Part shown: piece after piece, positions 11,314 through 17,428 of the stretch
Layout: each line of letters begins with the position of its first letter
Position numbering within the stretch: position 1 is the stretch's first letter
Source of the DNA: Candidatus Nitrosocosmicus sp.
Lineage (GTDB): Bacteria > Methylomirabilota > Methylomirabilia > Rokubacteriales > CSP1-6
Assembly (NCBI GenBank): GCA_035654455.1
Contig: DASRWT010000044.1
Coordinates: 10,926-74,925, forward strand
Length of the DNA stretch: 64,000 nt
Direction: 5' to 3'
The notes under the pieces: model-generated
The model's input: only the letters and a program-made list of their open reading frames with translations
What the model was told of the DNA's origin: nothing
Databases searched by the model: none
Program-made: the position numbers and the translations under genes

Positions 11314-11640
11314 CTAGAACTGGTGGGAGGAGCCGCAGCCGCAGGACGACTTCACGTTGGGGTTCTTGATGGCGAAGCCCGCCCCCATCATGTTGTTGTC
11401 CACGTAGTCGATCTCGCTGCCCGCCACGTACTGCGCGCTCTTGGCGTCCACGAATACCTTCACGCCCTGCGACTCGACCACGTTGTCGTCTTCCGCCGCC
11501 GCGTCATCCCAGCCGAGCTCGTAGGACATCCCCGAGCAACCGCCGCCGACGATGCGGATGCGCAGACCCCACTCGGGTTTGCCCTCTTCGAGCCGCAGCT
11601 CGGAGATCTTCTTCGCGGCCGTTTCGGTCAATGTCACCAT
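11314..11640 (-). CDS. iron-sulfur cluster insertion protein, IscA/ErpA/HesB family
   Basis: 108 aa with GGGCSG and C-terminal CGCGSS motifs. SD AAGGAGG. Confidence 0.9.
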   Translation of the reverse strand: MVTLTETAAKKISELRLEEGKPEWGLRIRIVGGGCSGMSYELGWDDAAAEDDNVVESQGVKVFVDAKSAQYVAGSEIDYVDNNMMGAGFAIKNPNVKSSCGCGSSHQF

Positions 11641-11688: not shown

Positions 11689-11697
11689 ATTATATCA
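11689..11697 (-). promoter_or_regulatory. candidate extended -10 promoter (TGATATAAT) for the IscA/ErpA-type gene
   Basis: Reverse strand reads TGA TATAAT; the TGA is the stop codon of the SDR gene. No good -35 element. Confidence 0.35.
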
Positions 11698-15746: not shown

Positions 15747-15813
15747 TCCCTTCGCTCCTCTTGGGTCGCGCTCCCGGCCAGGAGCGGTCGATGGCGTCGG
15801 TGTCGGACCCGAA

Positions 15814-15889
15814 TGGTGGCGGCGGGAGGACTCGAACCTCCGACACGGGGCTTATGAGACCCCTGCTCTGCCACCTGAGCTACGCCGCC
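15814..15889 (-). tRNA. tRNA with CAU anticodon (elongator Met, or Ile2 that is read after lysidine modification)
   Basis: Reverse strand GGCGGCGTAGCTCAGGTGGCAGAGCAGGGGTCTCATAAGCCCCGTGTCGGAGGTTCGAGTCCTCCCGCCGCCACCA. It folds as a 7/4/5/5-bp cloverleaf with loop CTCATAA, a G1-C72 pair and encoded CCA. Confidence 0.9.
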
Positions 15890-15898
15890 AAAATGGCG

Positions 15899-15926
15899 TG
15901 GACACGAAAAACCCGTTTGCTATAAT
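15899..15926 (+). promoter_or_regulatory. near-consensus sigma70 promoter TGGACA-N16-TATAAT
   Basis: -35 TGGACA at 15899..15904, a 16-nt spacer, and -10 TATAAT at 15921..15926. It lies about 75 nt upstream of the acidic ORF in a locally low-GC stretch. Confidence 0.5.
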
Positions 15927-16001
15927 CCCGCCGAACGGAGTCCAACAGTAACGACTCTCACCTCTCAAGTCAAGCGCGGCAGCCGCCCGGAGGAGCCTTT
16001 C

Positions 16002-16268
16002 ATGGCATGGCTCAGCACTCGGCCATGGACCGAGAACGAGTTGATCGTCCGCGTGCGTCAGATCGACGACCCCGACGAGGTCGAAGAGGAAGACGACGAG
16101 GAGGATGACGCCGATCTCGAGGACGACGACGAGCTCGACGACGATGATGACGACGAAGAGGACGAGCTCGACGACGACGATGACGTCGAGGACGACGATC
16201 TGGATGAGGACGACGACCTCGACGACGATGACGATGACGAGGAAGAAGAAGACGATGAGGACGAGTAG
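16002..16268 (+). CDS. hyper-acidic small protein (88 aa; poly-Asp/Glu tail)
   Basis: ATG preceded by GGAGGAG at 6 nt. N-terminal MAWLSTRPWTENELIVRVRQI, then 67 residues of which 58 are D or E. Confidence 0.55.
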   Translation: MAWLSTRPWTENELIVRVRQIDDPDEVEEEDDEEDDADLEDDDELDDDDDDEEDELDDDDDVEDDDLDEDDDLDDDDDDEEEEDDEDE

Positions 16269-16310
16269 CTCACCGGCCGCGGCCTAGCCGCCTTCACCAA
16301 GGAGGGCTTC

Positions 16311-17021
16311 ATGGCACTCTTCTCCGAAGCTGGTTGGCTATTCCTCCTGCGCTGGATTCACTTCCTGTCCGGCATCACCTGGATCGGCCTTCTCTACTAC
16401 TTCAACTTCGTCCAGACCCCGTTCTTCGGGGAGACCGAGGCTCCCGTGCGCAGCGGCGCGCAGCAAAAGCTGCTCCCGCGGGCGATGTGGTGGTTCCGCT
16501 GGGGCGCGATGATCACCTTCATCTCCGGCTGGCTCTACTTCTTCCACTGGTGGTACGGGAAGGTGGGCTTCGCGACGAGCTCGGGGGCGTGGGCCATCCT
16601 GCTCGGCGCGCTCCTCGGCTCCCTCATGTGGGCCAATGTCTGGTTCGTCATTCACCCCAAGCAGAAGATCGTCATCCAGAACGCGCTGGACACCGCGGCG
16701 GGCAAGCCGGCCAATCCCGCCGCCGCGCCCTCGGGCGCCCGCGCCGGTCTGGCCTCCCGCACCAACACCATGCTCTCGGTGCCCATGCTCTTCTTCATGG
16801 GCGCGGCGAGCCACCTGCAGGGACTGGCCTTGCCTCGCTCCGGCCTCATGTTCTGGATCGGCGCCATCGTGGTCATGGGCCTCGTGGAGATCAACGCGCT
16901 CAAGGGCACCCCGGGCAAGGGCGCGGCGAAGCCGCTTGCCACCGTGTCCGGCACCCTCTGGGCCGGCTTCATCCTCGCCGCGATCCTCTACGTCTGGTTC
17001 GAGCTGTTGGGCCGGATGTAG
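16311..17021 (+). CDS. polytopic membrane protein resembling the membrane domain of PuuD-type urate hydroxylase (no cytochrome c domain)
   Basis: LLRWIHFLSGITWIGLLYYFNFV resembles my recollection of PuuD N-termini (LLRWLHV..IAWIG..YF). About 6 TM helices. Family assignment is tentative. Confidence 0.6.
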   Translation: MALFSEAGWLFLLRWIHFLSGITWIGLLYYFNFVQTPFFGETEAPVRSGAQQKLLPRAMWWFRWGAMITFISGWLYFFHWWYGKVGFATSSGAWAILLGALLGSLMWANVWFVIHPKQKIVIQNALDTAAGKPANPAAAPSGARAGLASRTNTMLSVPMLFFMGAASHLQGLALPRSGLMFWIGAIVVMGLVEINALKGTPGKGAAKPLATVSGTLWAGFILAAILYVWFELLGRM

Positions 17022-17059
17022 CGCTTCCGCCAGTCGCGCGACCGCGCGAGTGACCGACA

Positions 17060-17092
17060 CGCCGGGTGGGGCCTGAGCCCCTCCCGGCGTTT
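17060..17092. terminator. bidirectional rho-independent-type terminator between convergent genes
   Basis: CGCCGGG-T-GGGGC-CTGA-GCCCC-T-CCCGGCG followed by TTTCAGTT. Confidence 0.5.
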
Positions 17093-17095
17093 CAG

Positions 17096-17428
17096 TTACT
17101 GGAGATAGGCGGCGAGGTCGGGCACGCTGGGAGCGAGGTCAGGCCGGGGCGGCATTACCTTGGTGGGACGCTTGGGCGTGTACCCCGGCGGGTACTCCCC
17201 CCGCACCACGCGCGCCTCGAGCAGCGAGGGCGAGGACCCCTTCACCGCCGGTCCCAGCGTGCCGTCCTTGGCGGGATCGGGATTGTGGCAGGCGACGCAC
17301 TGGCCCAGCCAGAGCTGCTTGCCCTTCTCCGGAGATCCTTTCACGGAAGACACCGGCTGGTCGCCGCAGGCGGCCGCGAGCCAGGCCGCGGCCGCCAGCC
17401 CCGCGGCCTGGCGGAGGCGCCGCTTCAC
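17096..17428 (-). CDS. small c-type cytochrome lipoprotein
   Basis: GTG start overlapping the DUF3501 stop (GTGA). Lipobox WLAAAC and haem motif CVACH. Confidence 0.8.
   Translation of the reverse strand: MKRRLRQAAGLAAAAWLAAACGDQPVSSVKGSPEKGKQLWLGQCVACHNPDPAKDGTLGPAVKGSSPSLLEARVVRGEYPPGYTPKRPTKVMPPRPDLAPSVPDLAAYLQ

What the first reader, a model, noticed from the sequence alone, without database searches (positions are those of the whole stretch)
15899..16268. 88-aa hyper-acidic protein (58 of the last 67 residues Asp/Glu) behind a near-consensus promoter
In a roughly 70 percent GC genome, a locally low-GC stretch carries TGGACA-N16-TATAAT (15899..15926), a leader of about 70 nt, a strong SD (GGAGGAG at 6 nt) and an ORF. 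The ORF encodes MAWLSTRPWTENELIVRVRQI followed by DDPDEVEEEDDEEDDADLEDDDELDDDDDDEEDELDDDDDVEDDDLDEDDDLDDDDDDEEEEDDEDE. The net charge is about -58, and only P, V, A and L interrupt the acidic run. The signals suggest high expression. Polyanionic proteins of this kind can act as DNA mimics (anti-restriction or regulator decoys), as cation (Ca, Mg, Fe) buffers, or as chaperone-like solubilisers. The short structured N-terminus may be a docking module. The gene lies 43 nt upstream of a PuuD-like membrane protein gene. I know of no described family matching this.
Basis: seen in the sequence. Interest (0 to 1): 0.65.

Follow-up and report, generated by a model that had tools for sequence, protein, structure and literature searches.

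The report
Conserved hyper-acidic small protein of Rokubacteria
This is a real, transcribed gene for an 88-residue, structureless protein that is two-thirds aspartate and glutamate. It founds an unannotated family found so far only in the uncultured soil phylum Rokubacteria, its function is unknown, and by E. coli rules its sequence should be very hard for a ribosome to translate.

Summary
ORF 16002..16268 encodes 88 aa with 58 Asp/Glu in the last 67 residues. It lies behind TGGACA-N16-TGcTATAAT and a GGAGGAG Shine-Dalgarno sequence.

It is a gene, not a microsatellite.
- 35 related loci in Rokubacteria (Methylomirabilota) carry the same architecture. Each has a short Trp/Arg/Pro N-terminus (M-x-W/F-L/R-x-x-R-P-W) followed by a 30-90 residue Asp/Glu tail with Leu/Phe about every fifth residue.
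- Each has a GGAGG site and nearly all keep the same extended -10 promoter.
- Conserved N-terminal codons vary synonymously.
- Strain variants in soil metagenomes fall mostly at third codon positions. The only indel seen is 3 nt.
- Eight RNA-type soil and rhizosphere data sets (seven labelled metatranscriptomes, one unlabelled run) hold near-identical contigs. One starts at 15933, 7 nt after the -10 hexamer, and none reaches further upstream.

No Pfam, NCBIfam, PHROGs, PADLOC or PDB match exists. Among billions of database proteins only 6-8 unnamed relatives appear. AlphaFold predicts no structure.

The gene is paired divergently with a tRNA-Met(CAT) gene and usually precedes a PuuD-like membrane protein gene. 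In some genomes the tRNA/acidic block is inverted, which argues for a trans-acting product.

The most likely role is a disordered cytoplasmic polyanion that binds basic partners. This is inferred only. The anti-restriction DNA-mimic idea is not supported.

The parts
15814..15889 (-). tRNA-Met(CAT) gene, divergent partner of the acidic gene. It has a G1-C72 pair, so it is an elongator type; Met versus Ile2 identity is undecided.
   Evidence: ARAGORN and Rfam tRNA at 64.4 bits. The same tRNA lies divergent to the acidic gene in 29 of the 33 loci where it was found, and within 300 nt in about 20.
15899..15926 (+). Promoter of the acidic gene: -35 TGGACA, 16-nt spacer, extended -10 TGcTATAAT, followed by a C-rich discriminator (CCCGCCG).
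   Evidence: 11 of 12 matches. (TGnTATAAT twice in 64 kb, 0 expected). The motif is conserved in nearly all 36 loci. RNA contigs start at 15933-15975 and never upstream.
15933..16001 (+). 5' leader of the acidic-gene mRNA, 68-69 nt, with no significant RNA structure.
   Evidence: The X31 RNA contig begins at 15933. The leader fold has z = +0.52 against shuffles. Rfam finds nothing there.
15945..15973 (-). Candidate promoter of the tRNA gene inside the leader: -35 TTGACT (15973..15968), 17-nt spacer, -10 TACTGT (15950..15945). Its start site would be about 5 nt from that of the acidic gene, so the two promoters overlap face to face.
   Evidence: TTGACT/TTGACA-N17-TACTGT/TAATGT is conserved 55-59 nt upstream of the tRNA 5' end in the window, L001, L002, L014, L016, L020, L021 and L038; the same motif is present in L034, where the tRNA end was not mapped precisely. 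It is absent where the tRNA is not adjacent. Function is inferred, not shown.
15989..15995 (+). Shine-Dalgarno sequence GGAGGAG, 6 nt before the ATG.
   Evidence: A GGAGG-type site lies 5-10 nt before the start codon in all 36 loci.
16002..16268 (+). Coding sequence of the 88-aa hyper-acidic protein, including the TAG stop.
   Evidence: Family conservation. Transcription.
16002..16064 (+). N-terminal module, residues 1-21 (MAWLSTRPWTENELIVRVRQI). The family core is M-x-[WFL]-[LR]-x-x-[RH]-P-W.
   Evidence: Alignment. Synonymous codon variation at the conserved Pro, Arg, Leu and Gly with an invariant Trp. Pairwise differences at codon positions 1/2/3 are 191/229/309 and 143/130/195.
16065..16265 (+). 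Polyanionic tail, residues 22-88: 58 Asp/Glu, interrupted only by Leu, Val, Ala and Pro.
   Evidence: Across 36 proteins the tail is 50.5% D, 26.7% E, 6.4% L, 3.4% A, 2.5% V and 2.0% F. The modal spacing between hydrophobic residues is 5. AlphaFold2 gives pLDDT 64, pTM 0.14 and no secondary structure.
16269..16310 (+). 42-nt spacer to the next gene, carrying that gene's Shine-Dalgarno sequence (AGGAGGG, 16300..16306). No terminator is present.
   Evidence: The terminator scan finds none here. The fold has z = -0.93. RNA contigs of close relatives span the junction (X27 16243..16490, X25 16250..16582).
16311..17021 (+). Gene for a 236-aa PuuD-like membrane protein (Urate_ox_N), probably in one operon with the acidic gene.
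   Evidence: PF06181, E 4e-14. It lies directly downstream of the acidic gene in 29 of 36 loci and in L081-L084.
17096..17428 (-). Convergent cytochrome c lipoprotein gene, the usual partner of the membrane gene. Given as context, not as part of the acidic gene.
   Evidence: Weak Cytochrom_C match. The membrane gene and cytochrome c gene sit together in 71 of 81 loci across phyla, with or without the acidic gene.

Best explanation
Shown: 16002..16268 is a genuine, transcribed protein-coding gene. It defines an unannotated family of small proteins (52-109 aa) seen so far only in Rokubacteria (phylum Methylomirabilota).

Family anatomy:
- A 10-22 residue N-terminus rich in Trp, Arg and Pro.
- A disordered tail that is 48-73% Asp/Glu (net charge -30 to -73), built from units of about four to five acidic residues followed by one Leu, Phe or Val.
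- A conserved near-consensus extended -10 promoter. In the window's clade it overlaps, face to face, the probable promoter of a divergent tRNA-Met(CAT) gene.
- Usually the gene is the first of a two-gene operon with a PuuD-like membrane protein.

Inferred: the product acts in trans in the cytoplasm as a soluble, disordered polyanion.
- Most probably it binds and buffers strongly basic partners such as nucleic-acid-binding, ribosomal or nucleoid proteins, by nucleic-acid-like electrostatic attraction.
- The regularly spaced Leu/Phe would serve as contact points. This is how prothymosin-alpha handles histone H1, and how the acidic tail of the Bacillus RNA polymerase delta subunit competes with nucleic acid.
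- The bulky N-terminal residues and the spaced Leu/Phe probably also keep the ribosome from falling apart while it translates the acidic run, that is, they counteract intrinsic ribosome destabilisation.

The confidence of 0.4 refers to this inferred mode of action. That it is a real, expressed, conserved coding gene I hold at about 0.9.
For: Coding and conservation:
- 35 related loci carry an ORF of the same architecture. Each has a GGAGG site 5-10 nt before the start.
- The N-terminal motif is kept through synonymous codon changes, with an excess of third-position differences.
- There are no in-frame stops in 2384 tail codons, although TAA and TAG are one step from GAA and GAG.
- Leu CTC (120) and Phe TTC (48), two mutational steps from GAC, outnumber the one-step neighbours AAC (14), CAC (11), TAC (7) and GGC (26).

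Population data:
- Contigs from two independent soil metagenomes are identical across the gene.
- 6 of 8 variants in a third metagenome are at codon position 3; five are synonymous and one is E>D. The others are A37D and V62A.
- The single indel seen is an in-frame CGA.

Expression:
- Near-exact contigs appear in eight RNA-type data sets (seven labelled metatranscriptomes, one unlabelled run), with 5' ends at 15933-15975 and none upstream.
- At 97% likeness the gene is one of only a handful in a 20-kb stretch seen in all four runs.
- The only other TGnTATAAT promoter in the window drives an IscA-like housekeeping gene that is also seen in all four runs.

Disorder: AlphaFold2 on the family alignment gives pTM 0.14 and no secondary structure.

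Trans action: the tRNA/acidic block is inverted in 5-7 loci. There the acidic gene precedes an enoyl-CoA hydratase or CoA-transferase gene instead of the membrane gene, yet it keeps its promoter, Shine-Dalgarno site and architecture.

Analogies from the literature:
- The delta subunit has a disordered acidic C-terminal region with net charge -47 (PMC7749165).
- Prothymosin-alpha and H1 form a high-affinity complex in which both stay disordered (PMC7661507).
- Bulky residues and tunnel occupancy counteract ribosome destabilisation by Asp/Glu runs (bioRxiv 10.1101/2021.02.02.429294).
Against: - No partner is identified and nothing here tests binding.
- The usual operon partner is a membrane redox-type protein rather than a nucleic-acid-binding protein. 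That would fit a metal-ion or membrane-linked role as well or better.
- Asp outnumbers Glu 1.9:1 in the tails, against 0.76:1 in ordinary genes of the window. This is more typical of cation-binding polyanions than of prothymosin-like proteins.
- The N-terminal motif is short, loosely conserved and absent from L038, L045 and L080.
- RNA contigs carry no strand information, so the sense of the transcript rests on where the 5' ends lie.
- Contig depth does not show exceptional abundance.
- Metatranscriptomes can contain DNA.
- Translation of the ORF has not been observed.
Confidence: 0.4

Rival explanations
1. Cation buffer or store. The polyanion binds Mg2+, Ca2+, Fe, Mn or polyamines in the cytoplasm and serves metal homeostasis. 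It may work together with the haem/cytochrome-type membrane module encoded downstream and the neighbouring rubrerythrin/PerR-type cluster.
For: - It is in an operon with the PuuD-like membrane gene in 29 of 36 loci, and in the contigs carrying two further database relatives (four contigs).
- The DUF3501/HdrD-like/rubrerythrin cluster is adjacent in about 20 of the 36 loci.
- The tails prefer Asp strongly (D:E 1.9:1, against 0.76:1 in ordinary genes).
- The charge density is very high and no structure is predicted.
Against: - Selection for Leu/Phe about every fifth residue has no obvious role in binding ions.
- The link to the membrane gene is broken in the loci with the inverted block.
- The membrane gene and its cytochrome c partner occur in many phyla without any acidic gene.
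- There is no metal-related regulator site at the promoter, which looks constitutive or stable-RNA-like.
Confidence: 0.22
2. Cis-acting sensor ORF. The product is irrelevant. Translation of the extreme Asp/Glu run aborts when ribosomes are destabilised, for example at low Mg2+. The degree of read-through then sets expression of the downstream gene, as in the MgtL leader of mgtA.
For: - The acidic tract starts at residue 10-22 in every member. This is inside the N-terminal 20-30 residues where destabilisation risk is greatest in E. coli (bioRxiv 10.1101/2021.02.02.429294).
- A run of 20 Asp aborts more than half of translation in vitro (PMC11162784).
- The next gene follows after 11-60 nt without a terminator.
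Against: - The tails are 30-90 residues long with a conserved composition and spacing, far more than a sensor needs; MgtL has 17 residues.
- The downstream gene has its own strong Shine-Dalgarno site, and the spacer has no significant alternative structure.
- The downstream gene is not a Mg2+ transporter.
- After inversion of the block the acidic gene keeps all its features in front of unrelated genes, with gaps of 100-220 nt.
- Spaced bulky residues look like an adaptation to finish translation rather than to abort it.
Confidence: 0.1
3. General protectant. An abundant, heat- and desiccation-stable disordered polyanion keeps other proteins soluble in a soil bacterium that faces drying, like the eukaryotic 'Hero' proteins or the chaperone action of polyphosphate.
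For: - The organism and all relatives come from soil, rhizosphere and groundwater.
- The promoter is strong and the transcript is detected in many soil metatranscriptomes.
- The sequence is fully disordered and of extreme charge.
Against: - There is no sign of stress regulation.
- The C-rich discriminator and the overlap with a tRNA promoter look more like growth-linked expression. This reading is inferred from E. coli rules.
- The family is confined to one phylum, although many soil phyla face the same stress.
Confidence: 0.1
4. DNA-mimic inhibitor of restriction or other defence systems (Ocr/ArdA-like).
For: It is small and very acidic, with a strong promoter. The neighbouring tRNA gene is an integration hot spot, shown by half-tRNA copies in L008, L013, L020, L021 and L080.
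Against: - It occupies a conserved chromosomal position between housekeeping-type genes across the phylum.
- There are no PHROGs or PADLOC matches.
- No fold is predicted, whereas Ocr and ArdA are folded DNA-shaped dimers (the statement about Ocr and ArdA is from established knowledge).
- No phage or plasmid genes are nearby.
Confidence: 0.03
5. Not a protein gene. The stretch is a GAN triplet repeat kept open by chance, or the real product is encoded on the opposite strand (poly-Ser frame) or in the +2 frame.
For: GAN repeats leave the +2 frame and two antisense frames open automatically; ORFs 16058..16312 (-) and 16105..16287 (+) exist. RNA contigs carry no strand information.
Against: - Only the sense frame has a conserved start, Shine-Dalgarno site and N-terminal peptide in 36 of 36 loci.
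- RNA 5' ends sit just downstream of the sense promoter.
- Interruptions are biased to Leu/Phe rather than to one-step neighbours.
- Strain variation is mainly at the third codon position, with a single 3-nt indel.
Confidence: 0.03

Closest known systems
Prothymosin-alpha (vertebrate linker-histone chaperone)
   Same: It is small (about 110 aa), fully disordered and about half Asp/Glu, with very high net negative charge. It acts by polyelectrolyte binding to a highly basic partner without folding (PMC7661507). This is a functional analogy only.
   Different: - It is eukaryotic and nuclear, Glu-rich rather than Asp-rich, and shows no sequence relationship.
- It lacks the Trp/Arg/Pro N-terminus and the regular Leu/Phe spacing.
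- No basic partner is known for the Rokubacteria protein.
C-terminal region of the RNA polymerase delta subunit (RpoE) of Bacillus subtilis
   Same: It is a bacterial, cytoplasmic, intrinsically disordered acidic tract of about 80 residues with net charge -47. It acts as a nucleic-acid competitor on RNA polymerase (PMC7749165).
   Different: - Delta has a folded 90-residue N-terminal domain that docks on the polymerase. The protein here has only a motif of about 10-20 residues and no Pfam match.
- Delta is confined to Firmicutes and relatives.
- The tract here is more extreme, up to -73.
MgtL and other Asp/Glu/Pro-rich leader peptides that act through intrinsic ribosome destabilisation
   Same: It has an acidic sequence close to the N-terminus of a small ORF placed just upstream of a membrane protein gene. 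By E. coli rules, translation of such a sequence is prone to abort.
   Different: - MgtL is 17 aa and lies in the leader of a Mg2+ transporter gene.
- The ORF here is 52-109 aa with a conserved composition, has its own strong promoter, and keeps its features when moved in front of other genes.
Phage and plasmid DNA mimics (T7 Ocr, ArdA)
   Same: Small, very acidic proteins expressed from strong promoters.
   Different: - Ocr and ArdA are folded dimers whose surface charges copy the DNA backbone, and they are carried by mobile elements (established knowledge).
- Here no fold is predicted, the context is chromosomal, and there are no PHROGs or PADLOC matches.
Eukaryotic poly-acidic tracts such as the 56-residue Asp/Glu repeat of yeast YOR054C
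   Same: Very long uninterrupted or nearly uninterrupted Asp/Glu tracts. These have been used as test cases for ribosome destabilisation and its relief by ABCF factors (PMC11162784).
   Different: That paper states that tracts like 20 Asp are present in eukaryotic proteomes but not in the E. coli proteome. The present family is a bacterial example, and its tract begins within the first 22 residues.

Membership tests
Any curated protein family (Pfam-A, NCBIfam) | Score above the family's curated cut-off | tested here: not met
   No families at E <= 0.01 in Pfam and none at E <= 1 in NCBIfam. The profile of 33 members finds no PDB chain at E <= 1.
Ocr/ArdA-type DNA-mimic anti-restriction proteins | Folded protein whose acidic surface imitates B-form DNA | tested here: not met
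   AlphaFold2 on the 33-sequence alignment gives pLDDT 64, pTM 0.14 and no secondary-structure element.
Ocr/ArdA-type DNA-mimic anti-restriction proteins | Carried in early or leading regions of phages, plasmids or conjugative elements | tested here: not met
   The position between the hydratase gene, the tRNA gene and the membrane gene is conserved across Rokubacteria contigs of up to 4 Mb. There are no PHROGs or PADLOC hits.
MgtL-type regulatory leader ORFs (intrinsic ribosome destabilisation) | Asp/Glu/Pro-rich motif within the first residues of the ORF | tested here: met
   The acidic tract (at least 7 of 10 residues) starts at residue 10-22 in all 36 members.
MgtL-type regulatory leader ORFs (intrinsic ribosome destabilisation) | Very short ORF within the leader of the regulated gene, with alternative RNA structures coupling translation to downstream expression | tested here: not met
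   The ORF is 52-109 aa. The spacer fold is not significant (z -0.93). The downstream gene has its own Shine-Dalgarno site.
MgtL-type regulatory leader ORFs (intrinsic ribosome destabilisation) | Fixed cis linkage to the regulated gene (a Mg2+ transporter in the known cases) | tested here: not met
   The downstream gene is PF06181, not a transporter. In 7 of 36 loci the ORF precedes other genes.
RNA polymerase delta subunit (RpoE) | Folded N-terminal domain of about 90 residues (HARE-HTH type) preceding the acidic tract | tested here: not met
   The N-terminus is only 10-22 residues, has no Pfam match and no predicted structure.
Functional class: disordered polyanionic binders of basic proteins (prothymosin-alpha-like). 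This is a class, not a homologous family. | More than about half Asp/Glu, no stable structure | tested here: met
   48-73% Asp/Glu and no predicted structure.
Functional class: disordered polyanionic binders of basic proteins (prothymosin-alpha-like). This is a class, not a homologous family. | High-affinity binding to a polycationic macromolecular partner | not testable with these tools
   This needs pull-downs or biophysics. No partner gene is evident from the gene neighbourhood.
New family proposed here (Rokubacteria small hyper-acidic protein) | N-terminal M-x-[WFL]-[LR]-x-x-[RH]-P-W motif, then a tail of at least 30 residues of [DE]4-5 units separated by Leu/Phe/Val, behind a TGnTATAAT promoter and a GGAGG site | tested here: met
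   The window protein aligns with 32 such proteins. A profile search of 1.84 billion representative proteins returns only 6 hits, all with this architecture.

The most novel reading that the evidence does not exclude
Rokubacteria make an abundant bacterial counterpart of prothymosin-alpha. In this reading it is a free, fully disordered polyanion whose gene shares an overlapping, mutually exclusive promoter region with a tRNA gene, so its level is tied to synthesis of the translation apparatus. It would chaperone or buffer highly basic ribosomal or nucleoid proteins, or polyamines and Mg2+. Because its own synthesis is extremely prone to ribosome destabilisation, its output would also gauge ribosome integrity and Mg2+ supply. 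That would form a feedback loop between cation status and polyanion level. The family would also show that bacterial ribosomes can be adapted, through N-terminal tunnel-filling residues, spaced bulky residues and perhaps ABCF factors, to translate 50-90 residue acidic tracts starting at residue 10-22.
Probability: 0.12. Interest if true: 0.85.

Novelty: new variant of a known kind. Interest (0 to 1): 0.55.

Why it matters
- The family is conserved across the Rokubacteria-type loci sampled here (36 of about 40), is transcribed in soils worldwide, and is almost invisible in protein databases. Only 6-8 unnamed and often mis-started entries exist among billions, so standard annotation skips it.
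- It is a natural bacterial case of the sequence type that the ribosome-destabilisation field has had to build artificially or borrow from yeast: a 50-90 residue Asp/Glu tract that begins inside the first 22 residues. The literature states that such tracts are absent from E. coli.
- It therefore offers a ready test of which features let a bacterial ribosome get through such a tract. Candidates are the N-terminal bulky residues, Leu/Phe every fifth residue, bL31 and ABCF factors.
- If the product is a free polyanionic chaperone or buffer, it would extend the prothymosin type of 'disordered polyelectrolyte' function to bacteria.
- If the function turns out to be simple ion buffering, the finding is of moderate, mostly annotational value.

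Tried and rejected
I therefore could not search the window's own genome for paralogues, ABCF or bL31 genes, or survey Methylomirabilota genome by genome.
- A whole-protein word-indexed search found nothing, because 8000 low-complexity candidates swamped it.
- The same search limited to residues 1-40 of the window protein found 2 candidates, neither of which scored. The window's N-terminus is a diverged version of the motif.
- Repeating that search with L014 gave 8 unnamed relatives.
- Pfam, NCBIfam, PHROGs, PADLOC and PDB profile searches were all empty.
- Rfam found only the tRNA.
- I looked for a conserved RNA structure in the 5' leader and for a terminator or switch between the two genes. 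Neither region folds better than shuffled sequence. The conservation of the leader is better explained by a tRNA promoter on the other strand.
- I looked for inverted repeats flanking the tRNA/acidic block that could explain its inversion. Only GAGCTC-type palindromes inside the acidic tract were found.
- One database relative gave a contig without DNA and another was not on record, so they added no context.
- Earlier notes of this scan on other hyper-acidic proteins concern unrelated families.
- I did not use the metagenome-contig scan, because patterns taken from the Asp/Glu tract would mostly return unrelated acidic sequences.
Full report
**1. The observation**

The ORF at 16002..16268 (+) exists as described. 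It has 88 codons: MAWLSTRPWTENELIVRVRQI, then 67 residues of which 58 are Asp or Glu. The net charge is -57.

TGGACA-N16-TATAAT lies at 15899..15926 with a TG extension. It is the only promoter-like site in 1.8 kb, against 0.1 expected. TGnTATAAT occurs only twice in the whole 64-kb window, with none expected.

GGAGGAG ends 6 nt before the ATG. The local fall in G+C to about 0.60 follows from A at every second codon position. The gap to the next gene is 42 nt. That gene is a PF06181 (Urate_ox_N) membrane protein.

Its 5' end is 10 nt from the -35 hexamer.

**2. Origin and relatives**

The genome-contig scan with the membrane protein returned 80 loci. The closest are MAGs of Candidatus Rokubacteria (phylum Methylomirabilota). 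A few carry other labels (Verrucomicrobiia, Binatia, Acidoferrum) but have the same locus and an identical tRNA, so they are probably mis-binned.

A six-frame scan found an acidic ORF in 35 of these loci, all of the Rokubacteria type. None occurs in the Binatia, Myxococcota, Bdellovibrionota or 'Deltaproteobacteria' loci.

The proteins are 52-109 aa, 48-73% Asp/Glu, with net charge -30 to -73.
- Every one has a GGAGG-type site 5-10 nt before its start codon.
- Nearly every one has T(G/T)GACA-N16-17-TGyTATAAT followed by a C-rich discriminator.
- The N-termini share M-x-[WFL]-[LR]-x-x-[RH]-P-W, often followed by I-E-D-E-E-N-P-x-Y. Three members (L038, L045, L080) lack the motif.

**3. Coding, not a microsatellite**

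GAN repeats keep several frames open automatically, so frame conservation alone proves little. Four other lines of evidence do.

(a) Only the sense frame has a conserved start, Shine-Dalgarno site and N-terminal peptide.

(b) The conserved Pro, Arg, Leu and Gly codons of the N-terminus vary synonymously and Trp is invariant. Pairwise differences at codon positions 1/2/3 are 191/229/309 and 143/130/195 in two subfamilies.

(c) The 2384 tail codons contain no stop, although TAA and TAG are one step from GAA and GAG. The interruptions are not the one-step neighbours of GAC (AAC 14, CAC 11, TAC 7, GGC 26) but mainly CTC (120) and TTC (48). The modal spacing between hydrophobic residues is 5, and the modal acidic run is 4.

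(d) In soil metagenomes the gene is identical in two independent assemblies. In a third, 6 of 8 variants are at third codon positions; five are synonymous and one is E>D. The other two are A37D and V62A, and there are no indels. The one indel seen anywhere is an in-frame CGA.

**4. Expression**

Fourteen runs labelled metatranscriptomic, from soil, rhizosphere, plant and sediment samples, hold words of the gene. I laid eight RNA-type runs on the window: seven labelled metatranscriptomic and one (X39) whose kind is not on record.
- All eight give near-exact contigs (0-4 mismatches) over the leader and the unique 5' part of the ORF.
- Their 5' ends are at 15933 (X31), 15946 (X25, X39), 15949 (X26), 15950 (X35), 15959 (X29) and 15975 (X27, X28). 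None extends upstream.
- Position 15933 is 7 nt after the -10 hexamer, which is the expected start site.

At 97% likeness, only a handful of genes in a 20-kb stretch are seen in all four runs. They are the acidic gene, rubrerythrin, an IscA-like gene and a few others. The IscA-like gene lies behind the window's only other TGnTATAAT. Contigs of close relatives span the junction into the membrane gene, and no terminator lies between the two genes.

Caveats: contigs have no strand, contig depth is a poor measure of abundance, and DNA carry-over cannot be excluded. The lack of coverage on the flanking genes argues against DNA carry-over.

**5. Not in any catalogue**

- Pfam, NCBIfam, PHROGs, PADLOC and PDB give nothing.
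- A profile of 33 members searched against 1.84 billion representative proteins gives six hits at E < 0.001. All are true members, and several are mis-started in the antisense of the tRNA gene.
- A word-indexed search of 5.8 billion proteins gives eight unnamed singletons.
- The contigs carrying two of these hits (four contigs, including Hainich groundwater assemblies) again place the gene directly upstream of a Urate_ox_N gene.
- AlphaFold2 on the alignment predicts no structure (pLDDT 64, pTM 0.14).

**6. Gene neighbourhood**

Two links stand out.

The first is to the membrane gene. In 29 of 36 loci the acidic gene sits 11-60 nt upstream of it. The membrane gene itself almost always pairs with a convergent cytochrome c lipoprotein gene (71 of 81 loci), in many phyla and without any acidic gene. 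The acidic gene is therefore a Rokubacteria-specific addition to that position.

The second link is to the tRNA. The tRNA-Met(CAT) gene is divergent to the acidic gene in 29 of the 33 loci where it was found, and about 20 of these lie within 300 nt.

In L005, L006, L012 and L015 the whole tRNA/acidic block is inverted between the hydratase gene and the membrane gene. L017, L027 and L029 show the same with extra genes. In these loci the acidic gene precedes the hydratase or a CoA-transferase gene, and the tRNA faces the membrane gene. The acidic gene keeps its promoter, Shine-Dalgarno site and architecture there. This argues that its product acts in trans rather than as a leader of the membrane gene.

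**7. Promoter geometry (inferred)**

In the window's clade only 112 nt separate the tRNA 5' end from the ATG. The one conserved promoter-like element for the tRNA is TTGACT-N17-TACTGT on the minus strand (15973..15945). It lies 55-59 nt from the tRNA and inside the acidic gene's leader. It is missing where the tRNA is not adjacent.

The leader has no significant RNA fold, so this DNA-level reading explains its conservation best. The two start sites would be about 5 nt apart, so two polymerases could not occupy both promoters at once.

The discriminator after TATAAT is C-rich, with C at the second position in nearly all loci. In E. coli that feature marks rRNA- and tRNA-type, ppGpp-sensitive promoters (established knowledge). 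Whether this holds in Rokubacteria is unknown.

**8. Mechanism**

What is shown is a real, transcribed, conserved gene for a disordered polyanion. How it works is inference.

I favour a trans-acting cytoplasmic polyanion that binds basic macromolecular partners. The regular Leu/Phe spacing is under selection and is typical of acidic disordered regions that grip basic proteins. There is no signal peptide, and the gene works in different contexts. The known analogues are the delta-subunit tail (net -47, PMC7749165) and prothymosin-alpha (PMC7661507).

A cation-buffer role is nearly as plausible. Asp exceeds Glu 1.9:1, and the usual operon partner and neighbours are redox or iron-related.

A cis-acting sensor role through intrinsic ribosome destabilisation is attractive on paper. 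The acidic tract begins at residue 10-22, where the risk is highest in E. coli. Twenty Asp abort more than half of translation in vitro. The cited paper also states that tracts like 20 Asp are absent from the E. coli proteome. The length, the conserved composition and the inversion cases speak against it.

The same literature suggests why the N-terminus is bulky (Trp, Arg, Phe, Leu) and why Leu/Phe recur. Bulky residues near the peptidyl-transferase centre counteract destabilisation.

**9. Oddities left open**

The hydrophobic interruptions use NTC codons almost exclusively. CTC:CTG is 120:18, against 58:59 in ordinary genes. GTC:GTG is 44:10, against 26:60. These codons are the reverse complements of GAG, GAA, GAC and GAT, and they create GAGCTC-type palindromes. 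This hints at an origin by local strand switching, followed by selection for Leu and Phe over Val and Ile.

**10. Verdict**

- Novelty: an undescribed family that is a new variant of a known kind, the disordered polyanionic proteins.
- Interest is moderate to fairly high, mainly for the translation and disordered-protein fields.
Distribution outside the 80 fetched loci and co-occurrence with translation factors remain untested.

Noticed in passing
window 15814-16268; L005, L006, L012, L015, L017, L027, L029: The tRNA-Met(CAT)/acidic-gene pair behaves as a divergent block of about 0.5 kb that is inverted in some genomes. Either promoter can therefore face the hydratase gene or the membrane gene. 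No flanking inverted repeats were found in the window.
   Followed up: partly
L008 2154-2194; L013 1158-1193; L020 3646-3685; L021 3617-3656; L080 3453-3491: Half copies of the tRNA-Met gene (positions 1-40 or 41-76) lie near the locus. They look like attachment-site scars from elements that integrated into this tRNA.
   Followed up: no
window 11689-11697 (-) and 11314-11640 (-): The only other TGnTATAAT in the window (TGATATAAT) lies upstream of an IscA/ErpA-like iron-sulfur assembly gene. RNA contigs for that gene appear in all four metatranscriptomes. Extended -10 consensus promoters may mark the most strongly expressed genes of this organism.
   Followed up: partly
window 16311-17428; 71 of 81 loci: The PuuD-like membrane gene, which lacks a cytochrome domain, is almost always followed by a convergent small cytochrome c lipoprotein gene. 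The pairing is seen in Rokubacteria, Binatia, Myxococcota and Bdellovibrionota, so it is probably a split PuuD-like unit.
   Followed up: partly
window 16065-16265 and the tails of all 36 loci: Leu, Phe, Val and Ile in the tails use CTC, TTC, GTC and ATC almost exclusively. These are the reverse complements of the acidic codons and create GAGCTC-type palindromes. Ordinary genes of the window use CTC and CTG equally and prefer GTG.
   Followed up: partly
P0004, P0001, P0003, P0006 (database relatives): Gene callers start these ORFs too far upstream. In P0004 the call runs through the antisense of the tRNA gene ('WWRREDSNLRHGAYETPALP'). The same antisense-tRNA translation appears in ORFs of L024 and L070. 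It is a recurrent annotation artefact.
   Followed up: no
window 15750-15825: One metatranscriptome contig (X29, no mismatch) runs from the 3' end of the tRNA into the start of the enoyl-CoA hydratase gene. This suggests read-through from the tRNA into that gene.
   Followed up: no
L002, L007, L013: MAGs labelled Verrucomicrobiia, Binatia and Acidoferrum carry this Rokubacteria-type locus with a 100% identical tRNA. The contigs are probably mis-binned.
   Followed up: no
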